In this document: piece after piece, positions 8,372-57,826 of the stretch
Layout of the letters: every line of letters starts with the position of its first letter
How positions within the stretch are numbered: position 1 is the first letter of the stretch
DNA from: Thermoleophilia bacterium
GTDB taxonomy: Bacteria > Actinomycetota > Thermoleophilia > BMS3ABIN01
Length of the DNA: 64,000 bases
Reading direction: 5' to 3'
Assembly (NCBI GenBank): GCA_041658605.1
Contig: JBAZZU010000002.1
Location: 1,477 to 65,476 of the forward strand
Made by a program: the position numbers and the translations under genes
The notes under the pieces: model-generated
What the model saw: the letters and a program-made list of their open reading frames with translations, nothing else
Told to the model about the DNA's origin: nothing
Databases searched by the model: none

Positions 8372-9679
8372 TTACCCGAAGATACTGGTCACAACCAGCA
8401 GCAGGCTCAGTATGATCAAACCCGCGGTCGTCAGGCCGGCGACCACGTTATGCCTCCTGCTGTTGGCGTACTCGCCCATGATTCCCTTGTCGTTAATTAT
8501 GATCATCACGAATATCAATATGAGCGGAAGCAGGATTCCGTTCACGTCCTGCGCCAGGACCATGATCTTCAATAGCGGCAGGTTGGGGATGAGCGCGACC
8601 CCGGCGCCGATGACGATTGATGCCGTAAAGAGACCGTGGAAGATGGGCGCTTCCCTAAAGGAGCGGTTAACGCCCGACTCGAAACCGAAGGCCTCACAGA
8701 TTGCGTAGGCCGTGGCCAGGGGCAGGATACATGCGGCCAGCACTGACGCGTTGAGCAGTCCGAAGGCGAAAAGCCTTGATGCCCACTCCCCCGCCAGCGG
8801 GACAAGCGCCTCGGCCGCCTGCTCGGCACTGTCTACATCCCCCCCAGTTGCGTGGATCGTAGCCGCGCAGGAAATGATGATGAACAGCGCCACCAGGTCA
8901 GTGATTACGGCCCCCATTATCACCTCTGCTTTTGTATAGCGGAAATGCTTGATCGAGATGCCTTTATCCACCACGTAGGCCTGGATAAAGAACTGGCCCC
9001 AGGGGGTGATGGTGGTGCCGATTACGGCGATGAAGAGCAGGATATAGCCGGCGTTCATCTCAAACGATGGCACCACCGTGCTGTGCAGCGCCTCGCCCCA
9101 GTCCGGGTGGGCCATGAAACCCGACACAACGTACGCGAGGTAAAAACTGGAGAAGACAAGGAAGGCCCGCTCGGCGATCTTGTAGGAGCCGCGCACGACC
9201 AGCAGCCAGATGAAGACGGCCACGAACGGCACCGTGTAATACTTGGACGCCCCGAATAGCTGAAAGCTCGATGCGATGCCGGAGAACTCGGAGATGGTCG
9301 TTCCCAGGTTCGCCACCAGCATCGCCGCCATCGCGAACAGGGTCAGTTTCAGCCGGAAGCGTTCACGGATCAGCGCCGCCAGCCCCTGGCCGGTCACCAC
9401 TCCCATGCGCGCACCCATCTCCTGGGTGACCGCTAGGCTGAACGTTATCAGCAGCAGCATCCACAACATGCTGTAGCCGAAACGCCCGCCCGCCATGGAA
9501 TATGTGGCGATGCCGCCGGCGTCGTTGTCGGCGTTGGCGGTGATCAGGCCCGGGCCCAGGATTGACAGAAACAGCAGCAGGCGCGTCCTGCCGATGCGCG
9601 GCAGCCGTGGCATGCGGGGGGTGGGGAGACGTGAAAGCCGCCTGCGGCCGATGCGGTGAAATGCTCTGAGGCGGCGCAT
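8372..9679 (-). CDS. NRAMP-family divalent cation transporter, NRMT-like (Mg2+-type signature).
   Basis: GPG...FGY core with 11-12 TM segments. The DPGN motif is replaced by DAGG, and the TM6 MPH motif reads TIH, so the methionine is missing. The gene is downstream of an M-box riboswitch. Confidence 0.8.
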   Translation of the reverse strand: MRRLRAFHRIGRRRLSRLPTPRMPRLPRIGRTRLLLFLSILGPGLITANADNDAGGIATYSMAGGRFGYSMLWMLLLITFSLAVTQEMGARMGVVTGQGLAALIRERFRLKLTLFAMAAMLVANLGTTISEFSGIASSFQLFGASKYYTVPFVAVFIWLLVVRGSYKIAERAFLVFSSFYLAYVVSGFMAHPDWGEALHSTVVPSFEMNAGYILLFIAVIGTTITPWGQFFIQAYVVDKGISIKHFRYTKAEVIMGAVITDLVALFIIISCAATIHATGGDVDSAEQAAEALVPLAGEWASRLFAFGLLNASVLAACILPLATAYAICEAFGFESGVNRSFREAPIFHGLFTASIVIGAGVALIPNLPLLKIMVLAQDVNGILLPLILIFVMIIINDKGIMGEYANSRRHNVVAGLTTAGLIILSLLLVVTSIFG

Positions 9680-9694
9680 GAAGTTAACTTAAGA

Positions 9695-10936
9695 CTAGCC
9701 GAAAATCTTCGGCAGCCTCTTCTTCCAGCTCAGGGGGAGGATTATATCTATGGCGTCATCGACGGTGACTATCCCGCGCAGCACGTTTTCCCCGTCGGTT
9801 ATCGGCAGCGCCAGCAGGTTGTATTTGGCGACCACATGGGCTACTTCGTCCAGCGATGCGTCGGCGCGCATGCTGATGAGGTGATGCTCCATGAATTCCT
9901 CGACCTTCTGGTCGCGTCGGGCCAGGATCAGGTCGCGTAGCGAGAAGACTCCCGCGAGATGGCCGTCGTCATCGACGACGTAGATGTAATAGATGGTCTC
10001 GGCGTCCGGTTCCAGCTCACGCAGGCGGCCGATGGCCTGGCCGGCAGTCATCCCCGGAGGCACTGAAACGAATTCGGTGGTCATTACACCGCCGGCTGTG
10101 TCCTCCTCGTACCTGAGCAGGTGCTGGACGTCCCGCGCCTCTTTCGTCCTCATCGAGGCCAGCAGCGACGCGGCTTTTTCCTCCGGCAGGTCGGCCAGCA
10201 GGTCGGCTGCGTCATCCGGGTCCATGTTGGAGAGGATAGTCGCCGCTTTCTTTTCGTCCATGTCATTGAGCAGGATGGCCTGTAAGTTCGGGTGCATCTC
10301 CTCGACCGTGTCGGCCGCGACCTCGTCCTCGAGCGCTTCGACGACCGCGACCCGCTCTTCAGGAGAAAGCTCGTTGGCGATGTCGGCGATATCGGCCGGA
10401 TGGAGCAAAGCCAGTTTGTCGTGGGTCAGCTGAAGCTTCATGCCGCTGGATTCACCACTGACAGGCTCGACGGTTTTCCAGTCGATCAGGCGCGGTTCCA
10501 CTCTGCGGGAAAACCGTTCTGCCAGTCTCGAGAGTCCGAGCCGGCGCATGATGGCGCCGCCCGATATGTCCACACCCACGACCCTCAGGGAACCGTTAGC
10601 GCGCGCAAGCTGCAGGTCGTTGACACGGATGAGCTTGTGGCCCTCGGTATCGACTATCTGCTTGTCGAGGATGTCTCCAGCCAGGAAGATCTCGCCCTCG
10701 CCGGGTTCGACCGCCTCAAGCTGGTCGAGCGGCAGGCGCAGCAGCGTCTGGGATTCCTCAAAATTGCGCACCAGCTCCCAGGGCAGCAGTATTTTCTTGC
10801 GCCCCTGTTTTACCACCAGCTTTGTGGCCGAGGGATACTTGCGCTTGATGGTCACCACTATGTCGTCGAGCACGCCCACAGTGCGGGATCTCGAGTCCTT
10901 GACCTGCTGTCCCAGGATCTTGCTGAGAAAAAACAC
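9695..10936 (-). CDS. MgtE N-terminal domain plus CBS-pair protein without a membrane domain. An N-terminal PRC-barrel-like region is present.
   Basis: MgtE_N helical repeats followed by two CBS domains, with no TM segment. The GTG start at about 10936 has a GGAGGT RBS, which is why I trim the track start at 11068. Confidence 0.7.
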   Translation of the reverse strand: MFFLSKILGQQVKDSRSRTVGVLDDIVVTIKRKYPSATKLVVKQGRKKILLPWELVRNFEESQTLLRLPLDQLEAVEPGEGEIFLAGDILDKQIVDTEGHKLIRVNDLQLARANGSLRVVGVDISGGAIMRRLGLSRLAERFSRRVEPRLIDWKTVEPVSGESSGMKLQLTHDKLALLHPADIADIANELSPEERVAVVEALEDEVAADTVEEMHPNLQAILLNDMDEKKAATILSNMDPDDAADLLADLPEEKAASLLASMRTKEARDVQHLLRYEEDTAGGVMTTEFVSVPPGMTAGQAIGRLRELEPDAETIYYIYVVDDDGHLAGVFSLRDLILARRDQKVEEFMEHHLISMRADASLDEVAHVVAKYNLLALPITDGENVLRGIVTVDDAIDIILPLSWKKRLPKIFG

Positions 10937-10956
10937 GGTTATTACCTCCGGCCAAT

Positions 10957-11240
10957 AAAAAAACCTTCCCCAAAGGGAAGGTTTGCATGCGCACGAAAAC
11001 GTCACTGTCCGGCGCTTATGGATTTGCAGCCTTATCCAAAGCACTACGGCAGTACCGTCTACAGTCACATGGCCTTCCCCAACTCATACAAGCTTTGGCA
11101 CAGCGCATCGTAGAGATTTCTCTCAGCCGTTTCGGGCAAAACCTTATGCCGGTAATGCCTGTTCTACCCGTTGGGGTCTTTGGACCTTTCCGGGCAACGG
11201 CCTGTGTCCGCGCTGGAGCCTCACCTAACGAGGATTAGCT
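10957..11240 (-). ncRNA. M-box (ykoK-leader) Mg2+ riboswitch with its terminator expression platform.
   Basis: The minus strand reads CGUUAGGUGAGGCUCC...UUGCCCGGAAAGGUCCAAAGACCCCAACGGGU...CAUAAGGUU...GUGCCAAAGCUUG, which matches the conserved M-box segments. The terminator CCUUCCC-UUUG-GGGAAGG plus U7 at 10985-10957 lies about 20 nt before the gene start. Confidence 0.8.
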
Positions 11241-26794: not shown

Positions 26795-28297
26795 GTGAGC
26801 CGGATTTATGAAAAACGCATCCAGGGGGCACACTCGGTGTCTCACAGCGCTGTTCCAGCGCAATGGATCTCTCCCACGCGCCTCATCAGGGAACTCGGGC
26901 TGCCCGGCGGCGGCAAATATATTCTTCTCGATAGCGCCGGCGGCAATCCCCACCTGTGCCGTTATTCCTTTCTTGCCTGGGACCCAAGGCTTGAACTGAC
27001 TCTGCACAGCGGCAGCGCGGCGATTACCCTTTCAGAAGGGCCGGGCTCCATGGAGATGGATACAGACTACATCGAAGTTACCGACCCCTTCGCTCTTCTC
27101 AGACAGTTGCTTCACGACCTGGCTCCGGAAGCATCGGCCGGCGCAGACGCGACAGGCTTCCCGGTTTCCGGCGGCGCTTTCGGCATGCTGGGATATGACG
27201 CCGGCCGCTATATCGAGAAGCTTCCCAGTCTTGCGAATGACGACCTCGACCTGCCTGAATTCCACTTCATCTTCCCCCGGAAACTGATCTGTTTCGATCA
27301 TGAGACCGGAACCGCCAACCTGTTCTTCGAGGACGCCGCTCCCGGCGAGCTGGCCGCCGCCGAAGAGGCCCTGCGCATGCAGTCGCCGGACAGCGAAACT
27401 TCCGCCGACGCCTCTGCTGGCAGGCACGAATTCAGCCTCAGCCATGAAACGCAGTCAAACATGACGCAGGAGGGTTTTACGAGGATCGTCCGGCGCGCGA
27501 AGGAATATATACTCGCTGGCGACATCTTTCAGTCCAACCTCTCACAGCGCCTCGAGCTCGAATATGACGGCGACAGCCTCGCGCTCTATGACGCGCTCAG
27601 GGCTGTAAATCCGTCGCCCTTCGCCGGGTTCCTCGATATGGGCGATTACCAGATCATCTCGTCGTCACCGGAGCGGCTCGTGCAGCTGGACGGCCGCGAA
27701 GCCCAGACCCGCCCTATCGCCGGCACCCGTCGCCGGGGTGTCGATAACGCCGAGGACGACGATCTCAGGGAGGAGCTCAACCTCGACCCCAAGGAGCGCG
27801 CCGAGCACATCATGCTGGTGGACCTGGAGAGGAACGACATGGGCCGGGTCTGCGATTACGGCAGCGTGCGGGTCGACGAGCTGATGGTCAACGAGGCGTA
27901 CTCGCACGTCACGCATATCGTCTCCAACGTCCAGGGCGAGCTTTACAGAACCAGGGACGCCATCGACCTTCTGAAAGCCATGTTTCCCGGCGGCACCATC
28001 ACCGGCTGCCCCAAGGTCCGCTGCATGGAGATCATCGACGAGCTGGAGCCGGTCCGACGTGGCCCCTACACCGGCAGCTTCGGCTACATCGGTTACAATG
28101 GCAACATGGACATGAATATAATCATCAGGACCCTGGTCCGCATCGGAAGCTTTGTTTTCGTCCAGGCGGGCGCCGGCATTGTCGCCGACTCCGACCCCGA
28201 ACGCGAGTACCGCGAGACCCTCCGCAAGGCGGAGGCCATGGTGCGGGCGGTCCAGCTGGCGAAAAAAACCGTCCCCGACTCCGGGCCGATTGTCTGA
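26795..28297 (+). CDS. pabB: Aminodeoxychorismate / anthranilate synthase component I (chorismate-binding).
   Basis: Chorismate-binding domain motifs: PFAGFLD, SSSPERL, GTRRRG. Confidence 0.75.
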   Translation: MSRIYEKRIQGAHSVSHSAVPAQWISPTRLIRELGLPGGGKYILLDSAGGNPHLCRYSFLAWDPRLELTLHSGSAAITLSEGPGSMEMDTDYIEVTDPFALLRQLLHDLAPEASAGADATGFPVSGGAFGMLGYDAGRYIEKLPSLANDDLDLPEFHFIFPRKLICFDHETGTANLFFEDAAPGELAAAEEALRMQSPDSETSADASAGRHEFSLSHETQSNMTQEGFTRIVRRAKEYILAGDIFQSNLSQRLELEYDGDSLALYDALRAVNPSPFAGFLDMGDYQIISSSPERLVQLDGREAQTRPIAGTRRRGVDNAEDDDLREELNLDPKERAEHIMLVDLERNDMGRVCDYGSVRVDELMVNEAYSHVTHIVSNVQGELYRTRDAIDLLKAMFPGGTITGCPKVRCMEIIDELEPVRRGPYTGSFGYIGYNGNMDMNIIIRTLVRIGSFVFVQAGAGIVADSDPEREYRETLRKAEAMVRAVQLAKKTVPDSGPIV

Positions 28298-31238: not shown

Positions 31239-31343
31239 AAATATCTCCCATTTGTTTCATCAACCCGGATGTGCCGAGTAGTGGGCACGAATTGAGATTA
31301 TAGCAACTCGCATTGTGTATTGAAGCCAGCGGGGGTGATATAT

Positions 31344-31371
31344 TATAATCATGCAAATATTTGAATATTCA
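31344..31371 (+). promoter_or_regulatory. Candidate -10 box plus a palindromic operator for the ArsR-family regulator.
   Basis: TATAAT at 31344-31349. A perfect 10-bp palindrome TGAATATTCA lies at 31362-31371, about 25 bp before the arsR-like start. ArsR/SmtB operators typically carry a TGAA...TTCA core. Confidence 0.4.
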
Positions 31372-31393: not shown

Positions 31394-31753
31394 ATGACTG
31401 ACGAGTTAAACCGAAAGCTATACGAGATGCACGCGGAGATCTGCAAGGTGCTGACCAATCCGAAGCGCATCGAGATCCTCAATCTCCTGCGCGATGGTGA
31501 AAGGTCCGTGGGCGACCTGGCGCTGCTTGCCGAACTGCCGCAGACCAGCGTGTCCCAGCACCTCTCCTTTTTGCGGCAGAAGGGCATGGTTGTATCGAGG
31601 CGCGACGGTTCGAGCATTTATTACACCGTCGCCAACGAAAAGATATTCAGTGCGATGGACATCATGAAGGAGCTGTTGCTGGAAAGACTGCAGGCGGACC
31701 AGGAACTTGTGGCCGGTCTTGCGGGGAGTCCGGCCTCAGCGGGGCGACCGTAA
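31394..31753 (+). CDS. ArsR/SmtB-family transcriptional regulator.
   Basis: HTH region ILNLL...SVGDLA...QTSVSQHLSFLRQKGMV. A single Cys. Confidence 0.8.
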   Translation: MTDELNRKLYEMHAEICKVLTNPKRIEILNLLRDGERSVGDLALLAELPQTSVSQHLSFLRQKGMVVSRRDGSSIYYTVANEKIFSAMDIMKELLLERLQADQELVAGLAGSPASAGRP

Positions 31754-31778
31754 AAAATTACAGGAGAAAGGCGGCACA

Positions 31779-32033
31779 ATGATGGATCCGGTTGTTATTT
31801 ATACCAGCTCTACGTGACACGACTGCCAAAAAGCGAAAGAGTTCTTTTCGCAAAGCGGGGTAGAGTACATAGAACGTAACCTGGAGGAGCCTGGAGTTCC
31901 CGAGGAATGCTTCGAGAGAACCGGGCTTATGACAAAGACTACTATGATAATCAGCGGCGAGGTTGTCAGCGGTTATGCAGCCAACGCCCAGCATGTCAGC
32001 GAATTGATCAATGACCTGAAAGCACGGGATTGA
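31779..32033 (+). CDS. Glutaredoxin-like thioredoxin-fold protein with an in-frame TGA at the first active-site Cys. This is a candidate selenoprotein with a UxxC motif.
   Basis: It translates as MMDPVVIYTSST-[TGA 31815-31817]-HDCQKAKEFFSQSGVEYIERNL...TTMIISGEVVSGY. This aligns to Grx/NrdH (VxIYT...CxxC...K...G; PxIxIxG..IGG). An AGGAGA RBS is present. A hairpin lies 16 nt after the TGA. Confidence 0.55.
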
Positions 32034-32100: not shown

Positions 32101-33255
32101 ATGGCTGGAAAAACTGTAATAGTTCTGGGTGGCGGCATCGGCGGCCTGGTGGCCGCCAACAGGCTTCATCATCTCCTCGGGCGTGATCACAGGGTCATCG
32201 TGGTCGACAAAAACTCCCGGCACAGTTTCACGGGCTCCTATTTATGGATTCTCAACGGGAAGCGTACAACCGGACAGGTTGAACGGGAATTATCCCGGCT
32301 CGAGCGCAAGGGCATCGATTTCATCAGGGGCGAAGTAACCTCGATCGACCCGGCGGCATCGAAAGTCACTGTCGGGGGAAAAGACCTGGATTACGATTAC
32401 CTGGTGGTTTCGCTCGGAGCCGAGCTGGACATGGGCTCAATCCCCGGCCTCTCCCGTGCGGCCATCAATATCTATGGGACCGACGGCCTGACCGAAGCCA
32501 GCAAGGCGCTGAAGTCTTTCAGCGGAGGCCGGCTGGTAATAGCCATCTGCCGCATGCCTTACAAATGCCCCGCCGCGCCCTACGAGACAGCCCTGATCGC
32601 GGACAACGTCCTGCGTTCCACGGGTGCGCGCGACACGACCGAGATCGAGATTGTCACATGGGAGCCGGCGCCCATGCCCGTGGCCGGTCCGGTGATGGGC
32701 CAGGCGATCCTGTCCCTGACTGAACCAAGGGGCATCAAATACCGGCCTAATTCCACGATCAATTCGGTCGATCCGGACACCAGACAGGTTTTGCTGGAAG
32801 GCGATGAGCCGGCGCCATATGATCTGCTCCTGACTGTGCCGCCGCACAAGTGTCCCCAGGTCATCAAGGACGCCGGGCTGACCGGCGATGCTCCCTGGGT
32901 GCCGGTGGATCCCGGTACGCTGGCCACGCAGCACGAAAACATATTCGTTATCGGCGACGCCACCATGATCAAGCTTCCCAACGGCAAGATGCTTCCCAAG
33001 GCGGGAGTTTTTGCCCACAAGCACGCCGAGACCGTGGCGCACGGGATAGCCGCGAGCATAAAAGGCAAGCCGCAGCCGAAACCGTACGACGGCGAAGGAT
33101 TTTGTTTCGTCGAGGTCGGCGACGGATCGGCGGGTTTCGCAAAAGGCAATTTCTACGCGGAACCCGATCCCGCCGTGAACGCGCGCAAACCCTCCAGGAG
33201 ACTGCACTGGGGCAAGGTCGCCTTCGAAAAGTACTGGTTCTGGAAGTACCTGTAA
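32101..33255 (+). CDS. FAD-dependent pyridine nucleotide-disulfide oxidoreductase, sulfide:quinone oxidoreductase-like.
   Basis: VIVLGGGIGG FAD motif. Conserved Cys in KCPAAPYE and a C-terminal Cys. About 384 aa. Confidence 0.55.
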   Translation: MAGKTVIVLGGGIGGLVAANRLHHLLGRDHRVIVVDKNSRHSFTGSYLWILNGKRTTGQVERELSRLERKGIDFIRGEVTSIDPAASKVTVGGKDLDYDYLVVSLGAELDMGSIPGLSRAAINIYGTDGLTEASKALKSFSGGRLVIAICRMPYKCPAAPYETALIADNVLRSTGARDTTEIEIVTWEPAPMPVAGPVMGQAILSLTEPRGIKYRPNSTINSVDPDTRQVLLEGDEPAPYDLLLTVPPHKCPQVIKDAGLTGDAPWVPVDPGTLATQHENIFVIGDATMIKLPNGKMLPKAGVFAHKHAETVAHGIAASIKGKPQPKPYDGEGFCFVEVGDGSAGFAKGNFYAEPDPAVNARKPSRRLHWGKVAFEKYWFWKYL

Positions 33256-33284: not shown

Positions 33285-33310
33285 AGGGGCGCGCCTTCGG
33301 CGCGCCCCTC
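33285..33310. terminator. Bidirectional GC-rich hairpin terminator between convergent genes.
   Basis: AGGGGCGCGCC-TTCG-GGCGCGCCCCT: a perfect 11-bp stem with a UUCG loop. Confidence 0.6.
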
Positions 33311-52593: not shown

Positions 52594-52800
52594 ATGGAAG
52601 AAAGAAAGATAACCGGTGATATGGTCATCAACGAGGTTATCAGGCTCTACCCCTGGACGCTGCCCGTCTTCCACAGTCTGGATGTGGATTCATGCTGTGG
52701 CGGCGCCCGGACTGTGGCCACCATGGCCCGGGAGCACGGGCTTGAACTCGATGGGGTCCTCGACAAGCTTGAAGCCGCGGCGGAAACATCTCAATCGTAA
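52594..52800 (+). CDS. DUF1858 domain protein.
   Basis: 68 aa with the pattern I..YP...VF...CCGG...L. Confidence 0.5.
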   Translation: MEERKITGDMVINEVIRLYPWTLPVFHSLDVDSCCGGARTVATMAREHGLELDGVLDKLEAAAETSQS

Positions 52801-54484: not shown

Positions 54485-55159
54485 TTGACACACGGATATT
54501 TTTCTTCTGAAAAGAACGCCGGTTCCACTGCCCGTGAAGCCGCAGCATCCGCGGCGGGCGCGATGTTCGACCACGAGCTGGTGGGTATGATCCTTGGTCA
54601 GGAAACAGCCGGGTCCGGGCTTGCCGGCATAAGCGAGGATATTTTCATGCTCTTCTCGGGCAGGGCGCTCTCGCCTGTCAGCGCCGAGGAGATTAGCTCA
54701 AAGTGCGGCCTGCCGGAGCAGGAATCATCGCGCCTCGCAGCATCGATCGAGCTCGCGCGGCGGCTCCTGATGCCGGACGAGGGGCAGGGCCCGATCCGTT
54801 CTCCGCGAGACGCCTGCCAGGCGGCGGCATCTATCCGGTTTGAAGAGAAGGAACACTTCCTCACCCTTTACCTGAATGCCCGTAACGTCATGATTCACAA
54901 GGAGACGGTTTCCATCGGCAGCTTAAACGCCAACATCGTGCATCCCCGCGAGGTGTTCCGCCCCGCGATAGCAAGGGCCGCCGCCGCCCTGATCCTGATC
55001 CATAATCACCCGTCCGGCGATGTCACACCGAGCCAGGAAGACCTGAATCTGACCGCGCGGCTGGTCGAAGCCGGACGTCTGCTCGGCATAGAAGTGCTGG
55101 ATCATGTTATTGTTTCCAGCAGGAGTTATCTCAGTTTTCGCAGCGAATCTTACATCTAG
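54485..55159 (+). CDS. radC: RadC-family JAB-domain protein.
   Basis: HNHPSGDVTPSQED JAMM motif. Confidence 0.85.
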   Translation: MTHGYFSSEKNAGSTAREAAASAAGAMFDHELVGMILGQETAGSGLAGISEDIFMLFSGRALSPVSAEEISSKCGLPEQESSRLAASIELARRLLMPDEGQGPIRSPRDACQAAASIRFEEKEHFLTLYLNARNVMIHKETVSIGSLNANIVHPREVFRPAIARAAAALILIHNHPSGDVTPSQEDLNLTARLVEAGRLLGIEVLDHVIVSSRSYLSFRSESYI

Positions 55160-55259
55160 ACATGGTTATATTCACCCGCAAATGTTGCTCATCGCATGGA
55201 ATTCATGTGAAAAATCATCAAAAACCCGAGGATTTCAAATATGAAATTACACTTATCTT

Positions 55260-55495
55260 TGTGGAAAACAGCCGTGCGTCCGATTTCAGCGTCCGCAACT
55301 GACCGGCTGGCTGTACATTCTTAAAGACAAAAAACATTATACAAATGGCTTGCTTTGAAAATATCTCTATTAGCAGGTCCTTTGCTCAAAAATAGGGTTC
55401 CTGACTCTCTTTGTCATAATTTGGCCGCCAAGCATTGTCAACCCCATTGATGCTTTTAAGGATGCGGAATCCGGGAGTTATCCACATTTTCCACA
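55260..55495. promoter_or_regulatory. DnaA-box cluster in an AT-rich 440-bp intergenic region. Candidate oriC or DnaA-regulated region.
   Basis: A perfect TTATCCACA at 55478-55486 sits in tandem with TTTTCCACA at 55487-55495. TGTGGAAAA at 55260-55268 is the reverse complement. Two further boxes carry 2 mismatches. A/T-rich tracts lie at 55200-55260. Confidence 0.45.
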
Positions 55496-55534
55496 GTTCT
55501 GTATAAGATCGACAAACGCCGATCCGCGCATTTA

Positions 55535-55564
55535 TTGACTTTGTTTGAAATCTGCCTGTATACT
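55535..55564 (+). promoter_or_regulatory. Sigma-70-like promoter of rpmH.
   Basis: TTGACT, an 18-bp spacer, TATACT, about 33 bp before the TTG start. Confidence 0.5.
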
Positions 55565-55597
55565 AGCAAGTCGGTTTAACCGAAAAAGGACAATTCG

Positions 55598-55732
55598 TTG
55601 AAGCGTACATATCAGCCAAACAAGAGAAAAAGAAAGAAAGCCCACGGTTTCCGGATCCGGATGAGTACGAAGGCCGGTCGCCGTGTATTGAAAAGACGCA
55701 GGGCCAAGGGCAGGAAGAGGCTATCGGCCTAG
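55598..55732 (+). CDS. rpmH: 50S ribosomal protein L34. Missed by the ORF track because it is under 60 aa.
   Basis: TTG start. It encodes [44 protein letters not shown]. Confidence 0.9.
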
Positions 55733-55749: not shown

Positions 55750-56118
55750 GTGGAGAAAAAAACCCGGCTAACCAAGTCGGCCGATTTCCAGCGGGTCTAC
55801 CGTCACGGCAAGTCAGTTGCCGGCCGGTATGCGGTGCTGTACTACTTTGAACGCGCCGGGGATTCAGTCGAAGGAGTATCCAGGCTGGGCCTGTCGGTAT
55901 CGAAAAAAGTCGGCACGGCTACAGTCAGGAACCTGGTAAAGCGGACGCTGAAGGAATGTTTCCGCGCTCGCCAGGAGCAGATTGCTTCAAACTATGACTA
56001 TGTAATTATCGCCCGTCCCGGGCTGGCGGATTTTATGGAGAAGAGCCAGTTTGAGGAGGTCGTCGAGATGATGATCGAACTCTTTCGGCGGGCTAACCTG
56101 ATTCAGGAAACAGAATAA
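55750..56118 (+). CDS. rnpA: Ribonuclease P protein component.
   Basis: GTG start. RNR-like basic motif and the conserved RnpA core. Confidence 0.9.
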   Translation: MEKKTRLTKSADFQRVYRHGKSVAGRYAVLYYFERAGDSVEGVSRLGLSVSKKVGTATVRNLVKRTLKECFRARQEQIASNYDYVIIARPGLADFMEKSQFEEVVEMMIELFRRANLIQETE

Positions 56119-56119
56119 A

Positions 56120-56341
56120 TTGAAACGCATACCCATTCTGATAATCGGTCTCTACCAGAGGCTGGTATCACCGCTCATACCGCAGCGCTGTAAATACTAC
56201 CCGTCCTGTTCGGCCTATTCCATTCAGGCTGTGAAGGAGTGGGGCATATTCAGGGGCTCCGCCATGTCGGTATGGCGCCTGCTTCGATGCAATCCTTTCT
56301 CGCACGGCGGCCATGACCCAGTAAGGAAGCGGCAACCATGA
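56120..56341 (+). CDS. yidD: Membrane protein insertion efficiency factor YidD.
   Basis: YQRLVSPLIPQRCKYYPSCSAY motif. Confidence 0.85.
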   Translation: MKRIPILIIGLYQRLVSPLIPQRCKYYPSCSAYSIQAVKEWGIFRGSAMSVWRLLRCNPFSHGGHDPVRKRQP

Positions 56342-57090
56342 ACCTGACAGATATGCTGGATTTTATAATCGAACCACTGGACGCGCTCCTGACGCTCATC
56401 CACGACAACCTGGGTGTTTCATGGGCTATCTCCATCATCATCCTGACGATCATTGTGCGTATCGTACTCATCCCGCTTACGGTGAAGCAGTATACGTCGA
56501 TGCGCGCCATGCAGAAGCTTCAGCCGAAGATCAAGGAGCTGCAGGCCAAATACAAGGAAGACAAGCAGAAGCTTAACGAAGAGATGATGAAGTTCTACAA
56601 GGAGAACAAGGTAAATCCCTTCGGCTCCTGTCTTCCACTGCTTTTACAGATGCCTATTTTCATGGCCCTCTATATCATGCTTTCCAACAAGGTTTTCCCG
56701 GAGGGCGATTCCCTTGCGTTCCTCTGGATCGACAGCATAAAGGACCCGGACAAGATTCTGGTTTTTGTTTATATGGCCACCCAGCTGTTTTCAAGTCTGC
56801 TGATGTCCGCTACGGTTGATAAGTCCCAGAGGATGATAATGATCCTGATGCCGCTGGGCCTCGGTGTATTCTTTCTCATCAATCCATTCCCGTCAGGCGT
56901 GCTTCTCTACTGGGTCACGACAAACGTATGGACGATCGGCCAGCAGCTGATCGTAAAACAGATTATCCAGGCTAAAGAGGGAGCGCTGGAGCCGGAGACG
57001 GTCCCGGCGATAGCGCCGCAAAAGTCTAAAAAAGTCCCTCAAAAGGCCAAGAAGACCGGAGGCAAAGGTGGAGGAAAACAAAAAAAGTAA
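56338..57090 (+). CDS. yidC: Membrane insertase YidC/Oxa1, short Gram-positive-type form with a Lys-rich tail.
   Basis: Five TM segments in the YidC core. The C-terminus ends KKTGGKGGGKQKK. Confidence 0.9.
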   Translation: MNLTDMLDFIIEPLDALLTLIHDNLGVSWAISIIILTIIVRIVLIPLTVKQYTSMRAMQKLQPKIKELQAKYKEDKQKLNEEMMKFYKENKVNPFGSCLPLLLQMPIFMALYIMLSNKVFPEGDSLAFLWIDSIKDPDKILVFVYMATQLFSSLLMSATVDKSQRMIMILMPLGLGVFFLINPFPSGVLLYWVTTNVWTIGQQLIVKQIIQAKEGALEPETVPAIAPQKSKKVPQKAKKTGGKGGGKQKK

Positions 57091-57826
57091 CGGTAATGTT
57101 CTGACGGCCAGAGGGGAAGGGAAAACCCTTCAGGAGGCCAAGTCGATAGCCCTTGAGAAACTTGAGGCACAGGTGGGCCAGCTGGATCCGGACAAGGTGG
57201 AGATAATCGTCATGTCCGAAGGCTCGAAGGGCTTTCTTGGCATGGGTTCGGCTATGGCGCGGGTTGAGGTCAGGATGCCTGGTGTAAAAATCGCCGATGA
57301 AAAAACAGAATCCCAGGCGAAGACGGATTCAGGTTCCGATGCAGTTGATACCAGGAGCACCGGCAAGGTAAATCCCGAGGCCGAAGCCCGGCTCAGGGAG
57401 CTTCTGGAAAAGGTAATAGACTCCATGGGCCTTGACGCAAGTGTCAGCATCACTGATGGGGATGAAGAAATCATCGCTAACATCGCCGGCGACGACCTGG
57501 GCCTCTTCATAGGCAGGCACGGTCAGACCATGGACGCTGTCCAGTACCTGTCGAATATCATCACCTTCCGGGGTCTTGACGAACGTAAGCGCATAGTAAT
57601 TGACGCGGAAGATTATCGCGACCGGCGGGTGGAAGTACTCGAGTCGATGGCCGACAGGGGCGCATCAGATGTGCTCAAGGGCAAAAACGATTACGAACTA
57701 AAACCGATGAGCGCCGCCGAGCGGCGCATCGTACACATGTATCTTCAGGACAGGGATGGAATTGAGACCTTCAGCGAGGGCAGGGAACCTTTCCGCCGGG
57801 TGATCATAACCCAAGCCGGCAGCTAG
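57068..57826 (+). CDS. jag: Jag/KhpB RNA-binding protein (Jag_N, KH, R3H).
   Basis: Conserved position after yidC. The R3H/KH motifs are present. The GTG start overlaps the yidC tail. Confidence 0.8.
   Translation: MEENKKSNGNVLTARGEGKTLQEAKSIALEKLEAQVGQLDPDKVEIIVMSEGSKGFLGMGSAMARVEVRMPGVKIADEKTESQAKTDSGSDAVDTRSTGKVNPEAEARLRELLEKVIDSMGLDASVSITDGDEEIIANIAGDDLGLFIGRHGQTMDAVQYLSNIITFRGLDERKRIVIDAEDYRDRRVEVLESMADRGASDVLKGKNDYELKPMSAAERRIVHMYLQDRDGIETFSEGREPFRRVIITQAGS

What the first reader, a model, noticed from the sequence alone, without database searches (positions are those of the whole stretch)
31779..32033. Glutaredoxin-like gene with an in-frame TGA replacing the first active-site cysteine: a candidate UxxC selenoprotein hidden from the ORF track
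The 6-frame track shows nothing on this strand because of a stop codon. Reading through the TGA at 31815-31817 gives an 84-codon ORF that starts at the ATG at 31779 and ends at the TGA at 32031-32033. It is preceded by an AGGAGA RBS.

The product is MMDPVVIYTSST-U-HDCQKAKEFFSQSGVEYIERNLEEPGVPEECFERTGLMTKTTMIISGEVVSGYAANAQHVSELINDLKARD. This aligns residue by residue with classical glutaredoxin and NrdH proteins, for example Grx3 MANVEIYTKETCPYCHRAKALLSSKGV..., and it keeps the TxP..(I/F)I.G..IGG hallmark.

The TGA sits exactly where the first Cys of CxxC belongs, giving U-H-D-C. The 12 codons upstream of the TGA are conserved Grx sequence. That would not be expected if they were non-coding.

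A hairpin GCGAAAG-AGUUC-UUUUCGC at 31833-31851 begins 16 nt after the UGA. That is the position where bacterial SECIS elements lie.

The gene sits between an ArsR-family regulator and an SQR-like flavoprotein.
Basis: partly seen in the sequence, partly recalled or inferred. Interest (0 to 1): 0.85.

Follow-up and report, generated by a model that had tools for sequence, protein, structure and literature searches.

The report
Unannotated selenocysteine glutaredoxin-like gene
A small glutaredoxin-like gene that gene callers truncate or miss at an in-frame TGA is almost certainly a real selenoprotein (selenocysteine in place of the first active-site cysteine), conserved in a narrow group of uncultured Thermoleophilia next to a sulfide:quinone reductase; it is a new subfamily of an already known class of selenoproteins.

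Summary
ORF 31779-32033 (+) has an in-frame TGA at 31815-31817 where the first Cys of CxxC belongs, and scores as Glutaredoxin (PF00462). I recovered 14 further distinct orthologs from independent MAG and metagenome assemblies, all Thermoleophilia where named. Every one has TGA at this codon, never TAA, TAG or a Cys codon.

Purifying selection is the same upstream (pN/pS 0.23) and downstream (0.20) of the TGA, so both sides are translated as one protein. The hairpin at 31833-31851 is the most nucleotide-conserved stretch of the gene. Synonymous change collapses there (pS 0.05 versus 0.65-0.99), and it meets all four published bacterial SECIS criteria in all 15 sequences. TGA is a normal stop elsewhere in the window, so the code is not reassigned. 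The nearest full-length relatives (at most 42% identity) carry Cys at the aligned position.

Not shown: Sec machinery in the same genome. It is present in a cultured Thermoleophilia species.

The conserved ArsR-GrxU-(DsrE)-SQR operon suggests a role in sulfide or persulfide handling; that is inference only.

Verdict: a new member of a known kind, of moderate interest.

The parts
31320..31349 (+). Sigma-70-like promoter match (TTGAAG-18 nt-TATAAT) upstream of the ArsR gene; possible operon promoter
   Evidence: This is a consensus match only (2 found versus 1.3 expected in shuffles). It lies in the 155-nt divergent intergenic region.
31394..31753 (+). ArsR/SmtB-family HTH regulator (119 aa) with one invariant Cys (MHAEICKVL); first gene of the conserved cluster
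   Evidence: Pfam HTH_5 E=1e-13. NCBIfam HTH_metalloreg scores 81.7 bits, above its cut-off of 55. BigR (49.5 versus 155) and TsoR (41.5 versus 115) are below cut-off. It is found immediately upstream of the Grx gene in all 14 other loci.
31762..31767 (+). Shine-Dalgarno sequence AGGAGA, 11 nt before the ATG
   Evidence: Orthologs have GGAGG/GGAGA-type sites 5-9 nt before their ATG.
31779..32033 (+). grxU: 84-codon glutaredoxin-like selenoprotein gene (MMDPVVIYTSST-U-HDC...), not listed as one ORF and truncated or missed in public annotation
   Evidence: No gene is called here on the overlapping ENA contig. Orthologs are called as 50-60 aa 'hypothetical proteins'.
31815..31817 (+). UGA read as selenocysteine; first position of the U-x-D-C redox motif
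   Evidence: TGA is present in 15 of 15 orthologs, while their true terminators vary between TGA and TAG. It aligns with Cys in YruB-like homologs and in Grx3.
31833..31851 (+). Core of the putative bacterial SECIS element: a 7-bp stem (GCGAAAG/UUUUCGC) with apical loop AGUUC at 31840-31844
   Evidence: It is present in all 15 orthologs, with one compensatory G-C to A-U change (L005) and one mismatch (L001). It is the most conserved 19-nt window of the gene. Codons are invariant at 4 of 5 hairpin positions versus 1 of 28 elsewhere (Fisher p=6e-4). pS is 0.05 there versus 0.65-0.99 elsewhere.
31820..31863 (+). Possible lower stem extending the SECIS (31820-31827 pairing with 31857-31863)
   Evidence: RNAalifold consensus. 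88% of cells are paired and 2 pairs change on both sides, but this is not significant against shuffles. Tentative.
32101..33255 (+). Sulfide:quinone reductase-like flavoprotein (384 aa, Cys form, true TAA stop); last gene of the cluster
   Evidence: Pfam Pyr_redox_2 plus FCSD_central. The best PDB relatives are SQRs over the full length (3HYV E=1e-29). The best NCBIfam hit is type III SQR (selenoprotein subtype model) at 244 bits, below the cut-off of 525. The stop is TAA. It is conserved downstream of grxU in every locus long enough to show it.
33286..33308 (.). GC-rich hairpin (GGGGCGCGCC-TTCG-GCGCGCCCC) between the convergent SQR and Zn-peptidase genes; probable terminator that ends the operon
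   Evidence: Read directly from the sequence. The consensus terminator scan did not list it, because the T-run is short.

Best explanation
The ORF 31779-32033 is one gene for an 84-residue glutaredoxin-fold selenoprotein ('GrxU').

How the UGA is read:
- The UGA at 31815 is decoded as selenocysteine, giving a U-x-D-C redox centre at the start of helix 1.
- Decoding is directed by a SECIS stem-loop inside the coding sequence. It has a 7-bp stem and an AGUUC loop that starts 22 nt after the UGA.
- By analogy with all studied bacteria, this stem-loop would be bound by SelB carrying Sec-tRNA(Sec).

Shown here:
- The UGA is conserved, and both sides of it are translated under equal purifying selection.
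- There is a strong RNA-level constraint on the hairpin, and the hairpin fits the bSECIS model.
- Homologs carry Cys at the aligned position.
- UGA is otherwise a stop in this genome.

Inferred:
- SelB binding and actual selenium incorporation are inferred, not shown.
- Function is inferred from gene neighbourhood only, with about 0.5 confidence. The gene is co-transcribed with an ArsR-type regulator, an SQR-like flavoprotein and, in a third of lineages, a DsrE-family sulfur-carrier protein.
- The selenol/thiol pair most likely handles the sulfane-sulfur products of sulfide oxidation. It could accept sulfur from the SQR persulfide, or reduce persulfides and polysulfides.
For: - Pfam Glutaredoxin, 36.2 bits versus a gathering score of 22.9.
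- All 7 database homologs are 50-60 aa truncated calls.
- Extending them shows TGA at the same codon in every locus. The same holds in 2 more genomes and in metagenome contigs, giving 15 distinct sequences in all.
- pN/pS is 0.23 upstream versus 0.20 downstream.
- Synonymous diversity collapses in the hairpin codons (pS 0.05). Codons are invariant at 4 of 5 hairpin positions versus 1 of 28 elsewhere, p=6e-4. The most conserved 19-nt window starts at +18, which is the hairpin.
- All four bSECIS constraints are met in 15 of 15 sequences (criteria in PMC13188914): loop of 3-9 nt and stem of 4-16 bp; G in the first two loop positions followed by U; spacing of 16-37 nt (here 22); MFE at or below -7.5 kcal/mol (here -8.1 to -13.2).
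- There is one compensatory G-C to A-U change in the stem.
- Sec/Cys pairing: P0009 (42% identity, E=6e-23) has IYTSSTCADC. 7C10 and Grx3 align in the same way.
- TGA terminates 9 of 34 Pfam-supported genes in the window.
- Sec machinery exists in the class: M. oceani has selD-selA-selB-tRNA-SeC. selA-selB clusters occur in related actinobacterial MAGs.
- Operon synteny holds in all loci.
- UxxC glutaredoxins are an experimentally verified selenoprotein family (PMC13188914).
Against: - No selA, selB, selD or tRNA-Sec is in the window or in any Grx-carrying locus. I could not reach the rest of these genomes.
- The hairpin's folding energy is unremarkable, with z from +0.2 to -1.3.
- Covariation is not significant: 63 of 500 shuffles reach the observed score, and 5 of 7 stem pairs never vary.
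- No Rfam family matches, even at E up to 10.
- The bSECIS criteria are loose, so meeting them is weak evidence on its own.
- L001 has a mismatch in the stem.
- The functional assignment rests only on gene neighbourhood. The regulator is below the cut-off for the known persulfide or sulfite sensors and has one conserved Cys rather than two.
Confidence: 0.87

Rival explanations
1. The TGA is a real stop. The region holds a 12-codon leader peptide, or nothing, plus a shorter protein that starts at a downstream codon, as the public gene calls have it.
For: Gene callers annotate 50-60 aa products that start after the TGA. No Sec machinery was found in the sequence I hold.
Against: - The annotated starts differ between orthologs: GTG or TTG at codons +11 to +27, or ATG at +18, +32 or +38. 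None is conserved.
- The only in-frame ATG shared by all is at +43, which gives a 29-residue peptide.
- Codons -10 to -1 and +1 to +37 are under the same purifying selection as the rest.
- Together they rebuild strand 1 and the CxxC helix of the Grx fold, residue for residue with Cys homologs.
- A strong Shine-Dalgarno site sits before the upstream ATG in the orthologs shown.
Confidence: 0.04
2. The UGA is read through as a standard amino acid (Cys, Trp or Gly) without selenium. This could happen by leaky termination, a suppressor tRNA or a lineage-specific code change.
For: Same-genome Sec machinery is unverified. The conserved UGA and the coding conservation would also fit any efficient read-through mechanism.
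Against: - TGA is an ordinary terminator for 9 of 34 well-supported genes in the window, and for this gene itself.
- No other TGA-interrupted coding region exists in the 64 kb.
- The position is the catalytic Cys of a CxxC motif. Sec is the known isosteric replacement there, and Trp or Gly would abolish redox activity.
- A conserved stem-loop at the SECIS position is explained by SelB-dependent decoding.
- Sec machinery occurs in the class.
Confidence: 0.05
3. It is a pseudogene or an assembly or sequencing error (TGC or TGT miscalled as TGA).
For: A single-base difference separates TGA from the Cys codons.
Against: - There are 15 distinct sequences from independent projects and assemblers (NCBI MAGs, JGI, ENA, Logan), and all have TGA.
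- Sequences have diverged heavily at synonymous sites (pS about 0.65-0.7), yet pN/pS is 0.2 on both sides.
- No Cys-codon ortholog was found in 185,579 species genomes or in 1.84 billion cluster representatives.
Confidence: 0.01
4. The conserved hairpin serves something other than Sec insertion, for example a minus-strand terminator, an mRNA stability element or a regulator-binding element. Under this reading its position after the UGA is a coincidence.
For: The scan flags it as terminator-like on the minus strand in the window. Covariation and energy statistics are weak. There is no Rfam match.
Against: - The minus-strand T-run exists only in the window's own sub-clade (4 of 15 sequences), whereas the hairpin is conserved in all.
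- No minus-strand gene ends there.
- The element sits at the canonical distance from a conserved UGA that must be decoded, and it has G-U at loop positions 2-3 as the bSECIS model requires.
Confidence: 0.05

Closest known systems
Selenoprotein glutaredoxins (PF00462, UxxC), e.g. Clostridium oremlandii Grx1 and the Geobacter sulfurreducens Grx
   Same: Both are small Grx-fold proteins with Sec replacing the first Cys of CxxC, and both have a SECIS inside the coding region just after the UGA. The family is listed as experimentally verified in PMC13188914.
   Different: The sequence relationship is remote: C. oremlandii Grx (4TR0) matches at E=0.012, 18.8 bits. This family lacks the cis-Pro, has an extra invariant Cys (GVPEEC), has no close Cys-form orthologs, occurs in Actinomycetota (Thermoleophilia), and sits in an SQR operon.
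YruB-family glutaredoxin-like proteins (TIGR02196), e.g. PDB 7C10 and database proteins P0009 and P0013
   Same: These are the best sequence relatives: TIGR02196 41.5 bits; 7C10 E=2e-9; P0009 42% identity. They share the length (about 80 aa), the IYTSxTCxxC start and the C-terminal EVVxGF motif.
   Different: They have Cys rather than Sec, and they keep the cis-Pro (VPT/VPV) where this family has KTT. The score is below the family cut-off (41.5 versus 88.55). The one context examined (A. caldus) is a metal-efflux cluster, not SQR.
Uxx-star glutaredoxin-like (seleno)proteins (NF041212, NF041211)
   Same: They are distant Grx-like selenoproteins defined by NCBI and give weak similarity: 31.6 and 21.6 bits.
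   Different: Both scores are below cut-off (66 and 100). By their name and the review's table, those families carry a second Sec near the C-terminus. This protein has a single UGA and a normal C-terminus.
Sulfide-responsive sqr operons under a persulfide- or sulfite-sensing repressor (SqrR/BigR of the ArsR family; the S. aureus cst operon with a DsrE-like domain); recalled from my own knowledge
   Same: The gene content is similar: an ArsR-family regulator, an SQR and, in some lineages, a DsrE-family sulfur carrier in one cluster.
   Different: The regulator scores below the BigR cut-off (49.5 versus 155) and has one conserved Cys rather than two. No persulfide dioxygenase or rhodanese is present. 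To my knowledge, a Sec-containing Grx-like component is not part of the described operons.
Type III SQR, selenoprotein subtype (NF049943)
   Same: The neighbouring flavoprotein's best NCBIfam hit is this model. This shows that Sec is already known in this branch of sulfide metabolism.
   Different: The window's SQR is a Cys form that ends at a true TAA and scores 244 bits against a cut-off of 525. Here the selenoprotein is the small Grx-like partner, not the SQR.

Membership tests
Bacterial selenoprotein (UGA decoded as Sec) | In-frame UGA aligned with a Cys in non-selenoprotein homologs (Sec/Cys pair) | tested here: met
   P0009 has IYTSSTCADC and 7C10 has YTSNTCPHC. In both, and in E. coli Grx3, the Cys aligns with the UGA.
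Bacterial selenoprotein (UGA decoded as Sec) | UGA conserved in orthologs, with protein-coding conservation on both sides | tested here: met
   15 of 15 distinct orthologs have TGA. pN/pS is 0.23 upstream and 0.20 downstream.
Bacterial selenoprotein (UGA decoded as Sec) | bSECIS stem-loop just downstream: loop 3-9 nt, stem 4-16 bp, G in the first two loop positions, 16-37 nt from the UGA, MFE at or below -7.5 kcal/mol | tested here: met
   The loop is AGUUC (5 nt), the stem is 7 bp, G-U occupy loop positions 2-3, the spacing is 22 nt, and the MFE is -8.1 to -13.2 kcal/mol in all 15 sequences. Criteria come from PMC13188914. Synonymous-site suppression supports it (p=6e-4). Covariation is not significant.
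Bacterial selenoprotein (UGA decoded as Sec) | selA, selB, selD and tRNA-Sec in the same genome | not testable with these tools
   They are absent from the window and from all Grx-carrying loci. SelA searches reached only other lineages. They are present in the class: M. oceani has selD-selA-selB-tRNA-SeC.
Bacterial selenoprotein (UGA decoded as Sec) | Selenium physically incorporated at the UGA position | not testable with these tools
   This needs 75Se labelling or mass spectrometry.
Glutaredoxin domain (Pfam PF00462) | Score above the Pfam gathering threshold | tested here: met
   36.2 bits versus 22.9, with U replaced by C. Only residues 5-48 (model positions 1-45 of 60) are matched.
Glutaredoxin domain (Pfam PF00462) | Redox motif C/U-x-x-C at the N-terminus of helix 1, after strand 1 | tested here: met
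   U-[HGN]-D-C is invariant after (V/I)IYTS[SP]T.
Glutaredoxin domain (Pfam PF00462) | cis-Proline (TVP/VPT) before strand 3, and the GG motif of glutathione-dependent Grx | tested here: not met
   An invariant K-T-T-M aligns with VPT/VPV of the homologs, and S-G-(F/Y) replaces GG. The protein therefore works like a Grx/NrdH-type redoxin but is atypical. Glutathione dependence is doubtful.
YruB-family glutaredoxin-like protein (TIGR02196) | Score above the NCBIfam cut-off | tested here: not met
   41.5 bits versus 88.55. It is the best of all NCBIfam hits but is sub-threshold.
NrdH redoxin (TIGR02194) | Score above the cut-off | tested here: not met
   22.9 bits versus 85.75. No ribonucleotide reductase genes are nearby.
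Uxx-star Grx-like selenoproteins (NF041212, NF041211) | Score above the cut-off | tested here: not met
   31.6 bits versus 66, and 21.6 bits versus 100.
SqrR/BigR-type persulfide- or sulfite-sensing ArsR repressor (for the upstream regulator) | Family score above the cut-off and the two sensing cysteines | tested here: not met
   BigR model: 49.5 bits versus 155. Only one Cys (C17) is present, and it is conserved across the orthologs.
Sulfide:quinone reductase (for the downstream flavoprotein) | Full-length similarity to characterised SQRs, with the two redox cysteines | tested here: met
   Aquifex, human and A. ferrooxidans SQRs match over residues 4-382 with E=1e-25 to 1e-29. Cysteines are present at 156 (KCPAAPYE) and 335. 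Their equivalence to the catalytic pair is my reading and was not aligned explicitly. The subtype model NF049943 is below cut-off.

The most novel reading that the evidence does not exclude
GrxU is an obligately selenium-dependent partner of a type-III-like SQR. Its selenolate would be the dedicated acceptor or reductant for the sulfane sulfur made by sulfide oxidation, handing it on to DsrE where that gene is present. If so, sulfide detoxification in these anaerobic Thermoleophilia would depend on selenium. The loss of the otherwise near-universal cis-proline and the gain of a third Cys would mark a mechanistically distinct thioredoxin-fold redox centre.
Probability: 0.3. Interest if true: 0.6.

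Novelty: new member of a known kind. Interest (0 to 1): 0.38.

Why it matters
- **Annotation.** The gene is truncated to a 50-60 aa 'hypothetical protein' or missed altogether in every public record I saw. No NCBIfam model reaches its cut-off, so a dedicated model would fix a recurring error.
- **Distribution.** It adds a Sec-containing redoxin subfamily in Thermoleophilia, a class I found no published selenoprotein analysis of in the held library.
- **Sec versus Cys.** It is one of the less common cases with no close Cys-form ortholog in very large databases. That makes it a clean system for asking why Sec is retained.
- **Possible function.** Its fixed position between a redox-type regulator and an SQR gives a testable lead for a selenium-sulfur link in sulfide or persulfide metabolism.
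- **Limit.** The recoding mechanism and the protein class are well known, so this extends existing knowledge and does not change it.

Tried and rejected
1. **Second selenoprotein in the SQR gene.** Its best NCBIfam hit is a selenoprotein-subtype model that stops short of the model's end. Rejected: the ORF ends at TAA, followed by a terminator hairpin.
2. **sel genes, tRNA-Sec or other TGA-split genes in the window and loci.** None found.
3. **Linking SelA to the Grx-carrying MAGs.**
   - An E. coli SelA query returned only Enterobacterales.
   - A Miltoncostaea SelA query returned 120 actinobacterial SelA proteins, none named as coming from those MAGs.
   - Cluster look-up gave no accessions.
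   - Four contig look-ups landed in other assemblies.
   - The BSepDB supplements are not held.
4. **Rfam match for the hairpin.** None, even with a permissive E-value.
5. **Structure prediction.** No 3D test was possible of whether Cys44 lies near Sec13.
6. **Minus-strand terminator reading of the hairpin.** Rejected, because the T-run is not conserved.
7. **Selenium-handling link through the oxidoreductase next to selB in M. oceani.** Rejected: it is unrelated to the window's SQR beyond the FAD motif.
8. **Context of Cys homologs on plasmids.** The A. caldus copy lies in a metal-efflux cluster, and the Acetoanaerobium copy is an ordinary CSYC glutaredoxin in an unannotated record. Neither helps with function.
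9. **Literature.** I found no paper in the held library that describes this subfamily or Sec use in Thermoleophilia. Haft & Tolstoy 2025 is not held.
Full report
**1. Observation**

- An ATG at 31779 follows AGGAGA (31762-31767) and opens a frame that runs to TGA at 32031-32033.
- The frame has one internal TGA, at 31815-31817. The mechanical ORF list has no entry for the whole gene.
- With the TGA read as Cys, the 84-residue product scores 36.2 bits on Pfam Glutaredoxin, against a gathering score of 22.9.
- It aligns with E. coli Grx3 so that the TGA falls on the first Cys of CPYC.
- The gene lies 26 nt after an ArsR-family regulator (31394-31753) and 67 nt before a flavoprotein (32101-33255). 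That flavoprotein's closest solved relatives are sulfide:quinone reductases over its full length.

The cis-proline motif is not kept: where relatives have VPT or VPV, this protein has K-T-T-M, and the 'GG' is S-G-Y/F.

**2. Comparative evidence that the UGA is decoded**

*Orthologs.* A search of 5.8 billion proteins found only seven related clusters. All are 50-60 residue 'hypothetical proteins' that cover just the C-terminal two thirds, and the named ones come from Thermoleophilia MAGs. I fetched their contigs and extended the frames upstream. Every one has an in-frame stop at the same codon, inside the conserved context IYTS[SP]T-*-xDC.
- The codon is TGA in every case, while the genuine terminators vary between TGA and TAG.
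- Scans of one genome per species and of JGI metagenomes added further loci, again all with TGA.
- In total there are 15 distinct sequences from NCBI, JGI, ENA and Logan assemblies.

*Selection.* These sequences have diverged heavily at synonymous sites (pS about 0.65-0.7 outside the hairpin). Even so, pN/pS is 0.23 for the ten codons before the TGA and 0.20 for codons +12 to +62 after it. Both parts are therefore translated, in this frame, under equal constraint.

*What this excludes.*
- It rules out a sequencing error and a pseudogene.
- It also rules out a shorter protein that starts downstream. The annotated downstream starts differ from locus to locus. The only ATG shared by all orthologs after the TGA is at codon +43, which would give 29 residues.
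- A reassigned genetic code is excluded. TGA terminates 9 of 34 Pfam-supported genes in the window, and no other coding region in the 64 kb is interrupted by TGA.

**3. Sec/Cys pairing**

An exhaustive HMMER search of 1.84 billion cluster representatives, using the exact post-TGA sequence, found no close full-length relative.
- The nearest full-length proteins are YruB-type glutaredoxin-like proteins of about 80 residues, at 30-40% identity. They have Cys where this family has the UGA. For example, P0009 has IYTSSTCADCQSAKEF, at 42% identity and E=6e-23 in a pairwise comparison.
- The genome scan used a pattern that back-translates a Cys codon at this position. It still recovered only TGA-bearing genes.
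- So within reach of these databases the family exists only in the Sec form.

**4. The SECIS candidate**

The hairpin at 31833-31851 has a 7-bp stem and the loop AGUUC. It is present in all 15 sequences.

*Fit to the published model.* The bSECIS model is taken from PMC13188914; the results are.

| Published criterion | This element |
|---|---|
| Apical loop 3-9 nt | 5 nt (AGUUC) |
| Upper stem 4-16 bp | 7 bp |
| G in the first two loop positions, usually followed by G or U | G-U at loop positions 2-3 |
| 16-37 nt between the UGA and the loop | 22 nt |
| MFE at or below -7.5 kcal/mol | -8.1 to -13.2 kcal/mol |

These criteria are loose, so I looked for independent evidence of an RNA-level constraint.

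*Conservation.*
- pS drops to 0.05 in the six hairpin codons, against 0.65-0.99 elsewhere.
- Among amino-acid-invariant degenerate codons, 4 of 5 in the hairpin never change codon, against 1 of 28 elsewhere (Fisher p=6e-4).
- The two adjacent Phe codons are fixed as TTC then TTT, which codon bias cannot explain.
- The most conserved 19-nt window of the whole gene starts at +18, which is exactly the hairpin.

*Weaker points.*
- One sequence (L005) has a compensatory G-C to A-U change and one (L001) has a mismatch.
- Formal covariation is not significant, because the stem hardly varies.
- Folding energy is unremarkable for the composition.
- No Rfam family matches.
- The terminator-like appearance on the minus strand depends on a T-run found only in the window's own sub-clade, so it is not the conserved feature.

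**5. Sec machinery**

This is the one test I could not complete. The window and all Grx-carrying loci lack sel genes and tRNA-Sec.
- A tblastn search of plasmid records turned up Miltoncostaea oceani, a cultured member of the class Thermoleophilia. It has selD-selA-selB followed by a tRNA-SeC.
- Its SelA retrieves many actinobacterial selA-selB clusters.
- Sec decoding is therefore established for the class but not for this genome.

**6. What the protein is and what it may do**

*Classification.* It is a thioredoxin-fold redoxin, closest to the YruB subgroup: TIGR02196 at 41.5 bits, and PDB 7C10 at E=2e-9.
- It is below the cut-off of every NCBIfam model, including the Uxx-star selenoprotein models.
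- It is only remotely related to the characterised Sec-glutaredoxin of C. oremlandii (4TR0, E=0.012).

*Family-specific features*:
- the U-x-D-C centre;
- Thr in place of the cis-Pro;
- an extra invariant Cys in GVPEEC, where homologs have Leu.

*Gene context.* The order ArsR-GrxU-SQR is kept in every locus long enough to show it. A DsrE-family gene lies between GrxU and SQR in five of fourteen loci.
- The SQR-like protein has cysteines at 156 (KCPAAPYE) and 335, and an aromatic, amphipathic C-terminus.
- The regulator has a single invariant Cys and is sub-threshold for BigR and TsoR.

*Inference.* From this I infer, with about even odds, that GrxU handles the sulfane sulfur produced by the SQR, as an acceptor or as a persulfide/polysulfide reductase. 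Nothing beyond gene neighbourhood supports this.

**7. Comparison with what is known, and verdict**

UxxC glutaredoxins have been a recognised selenoprotein family since the first prokaryotic selenoproteome surveys, and are experimentally verified. Sec forms of DsrE-like proteins and of type III SQR are also on record.

The recoding mechanism proposed here is the standard bacterial one. What is new:
- the subfamily itself;
- its restriction to a narrow Thermoleophilia lineage;
- the lack of Cys-form orthologs;
- the missing cis-Pro;
- the fixed SQR context;
- the fact that it is missed or truncated in all public annotation I saw.

I rate it a new member of a known kind, of moderate interest. 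My confidence that it is a genuine selenoprotein gene is about 0.87.

Noticed in passing
window 11071-11239 (-), with 9695-11068 (-) and 8372-9679 (-): An M-box (Mg2+) riboswitch (139.5 bits) lies directly upstream of an MgtE-like gene (MgtE_N plus CBS domains). An Nramp transporter gene follows on the same strand. This looks like a standard metal-homeostasis arrangement.
   Followed up: partly
window 55150-55600, next to 55750-57826 (+): An AT-rich stretch (GC 0.40 versus 0.58 for the window) has three perfect DnaA boxes (55260, 55478, 55487). It sits just upstream of an rpmH-like small ORF and of rnpA-yidC-jag. It is probably the chromosomal origin region. No dnaA was recognised beside it.
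   Followed up: partly
window 32101-33255 (+): The SQR-like gene's best NCBIfam hit is the 'type III SQR, selenoprotein subtype' model (244 bits, cut-off 525), matched only to model position 381 of 406. I checked whether its stop is a second Sec codon. It is a true TAA, followed by a GC-rich hairpin.
   Followed up: yes
L001 2546-2896, L005 1220-1570, L006 5258-5608, L007 2574-2900 (cut by the contig end), L019 928-1275: A 116-residue DsrE-family gene lies between the Grx and SQR genes in five related loci. It is absent from the window and its closest relatives, where only a 67-nt spacer remains.
   Followed up: partly
L022 8893-13139 (Miltoncostaea oceani NZ_CP064357.1): The complete Sec machinery operon selD-selA-selB plus tRNA-SeC of this cultured Thermoleophilia species lies on an 816-kb replicon labelled a plasmid. 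The tRNA is not in the plasmid gene table but corresponds to a skipped locus tag.
   Followed up: yes
L023, L025 and L031-L034 (with the TPR gene); L029 and L030 (without it): In several actinobacterial MAGs, selA overlaps the end of moaE in a thiS-moaE-selA-selB cluster. In most of them a small TPR gene sits between selA and selB. ARAGORN finds no tRNA-Sec in the five of these loci that I scanned (L023, L025, L029, L031, L032), although there is a gap of about 220 nt after selB in several of them.
   Followed up: no
window 52594-52800 (+): A 68-codon ORF lies in an 847-bp gap that has no long ORF: MEERKITGDMVINEVIRLYPWTLPVFHSLDVDSCCGG... From memory it resembles small 'redox disulfide' DUF1858-type domains. 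I did not test this.
   Followed up: no
window 31394-31753 (+) and orthologs: The ArsR-family regulator has exactly one Cys, in MHAEICKVL, and it is invariant in all 15 loci. That differs from the two-Cys persulfide sensors SqrR and BigR.
   Followed up: partly
window 26800-64000: The window overlaps ENA metagenome contig ERZ27247322 k141_35975 (148.8 kb). By my coordinate arithmetic, that contig would extend about 111 kb beyond the window's right end and stop near window position 26800. Its gene calls leave the Grx region empty.
   Followed up: partly
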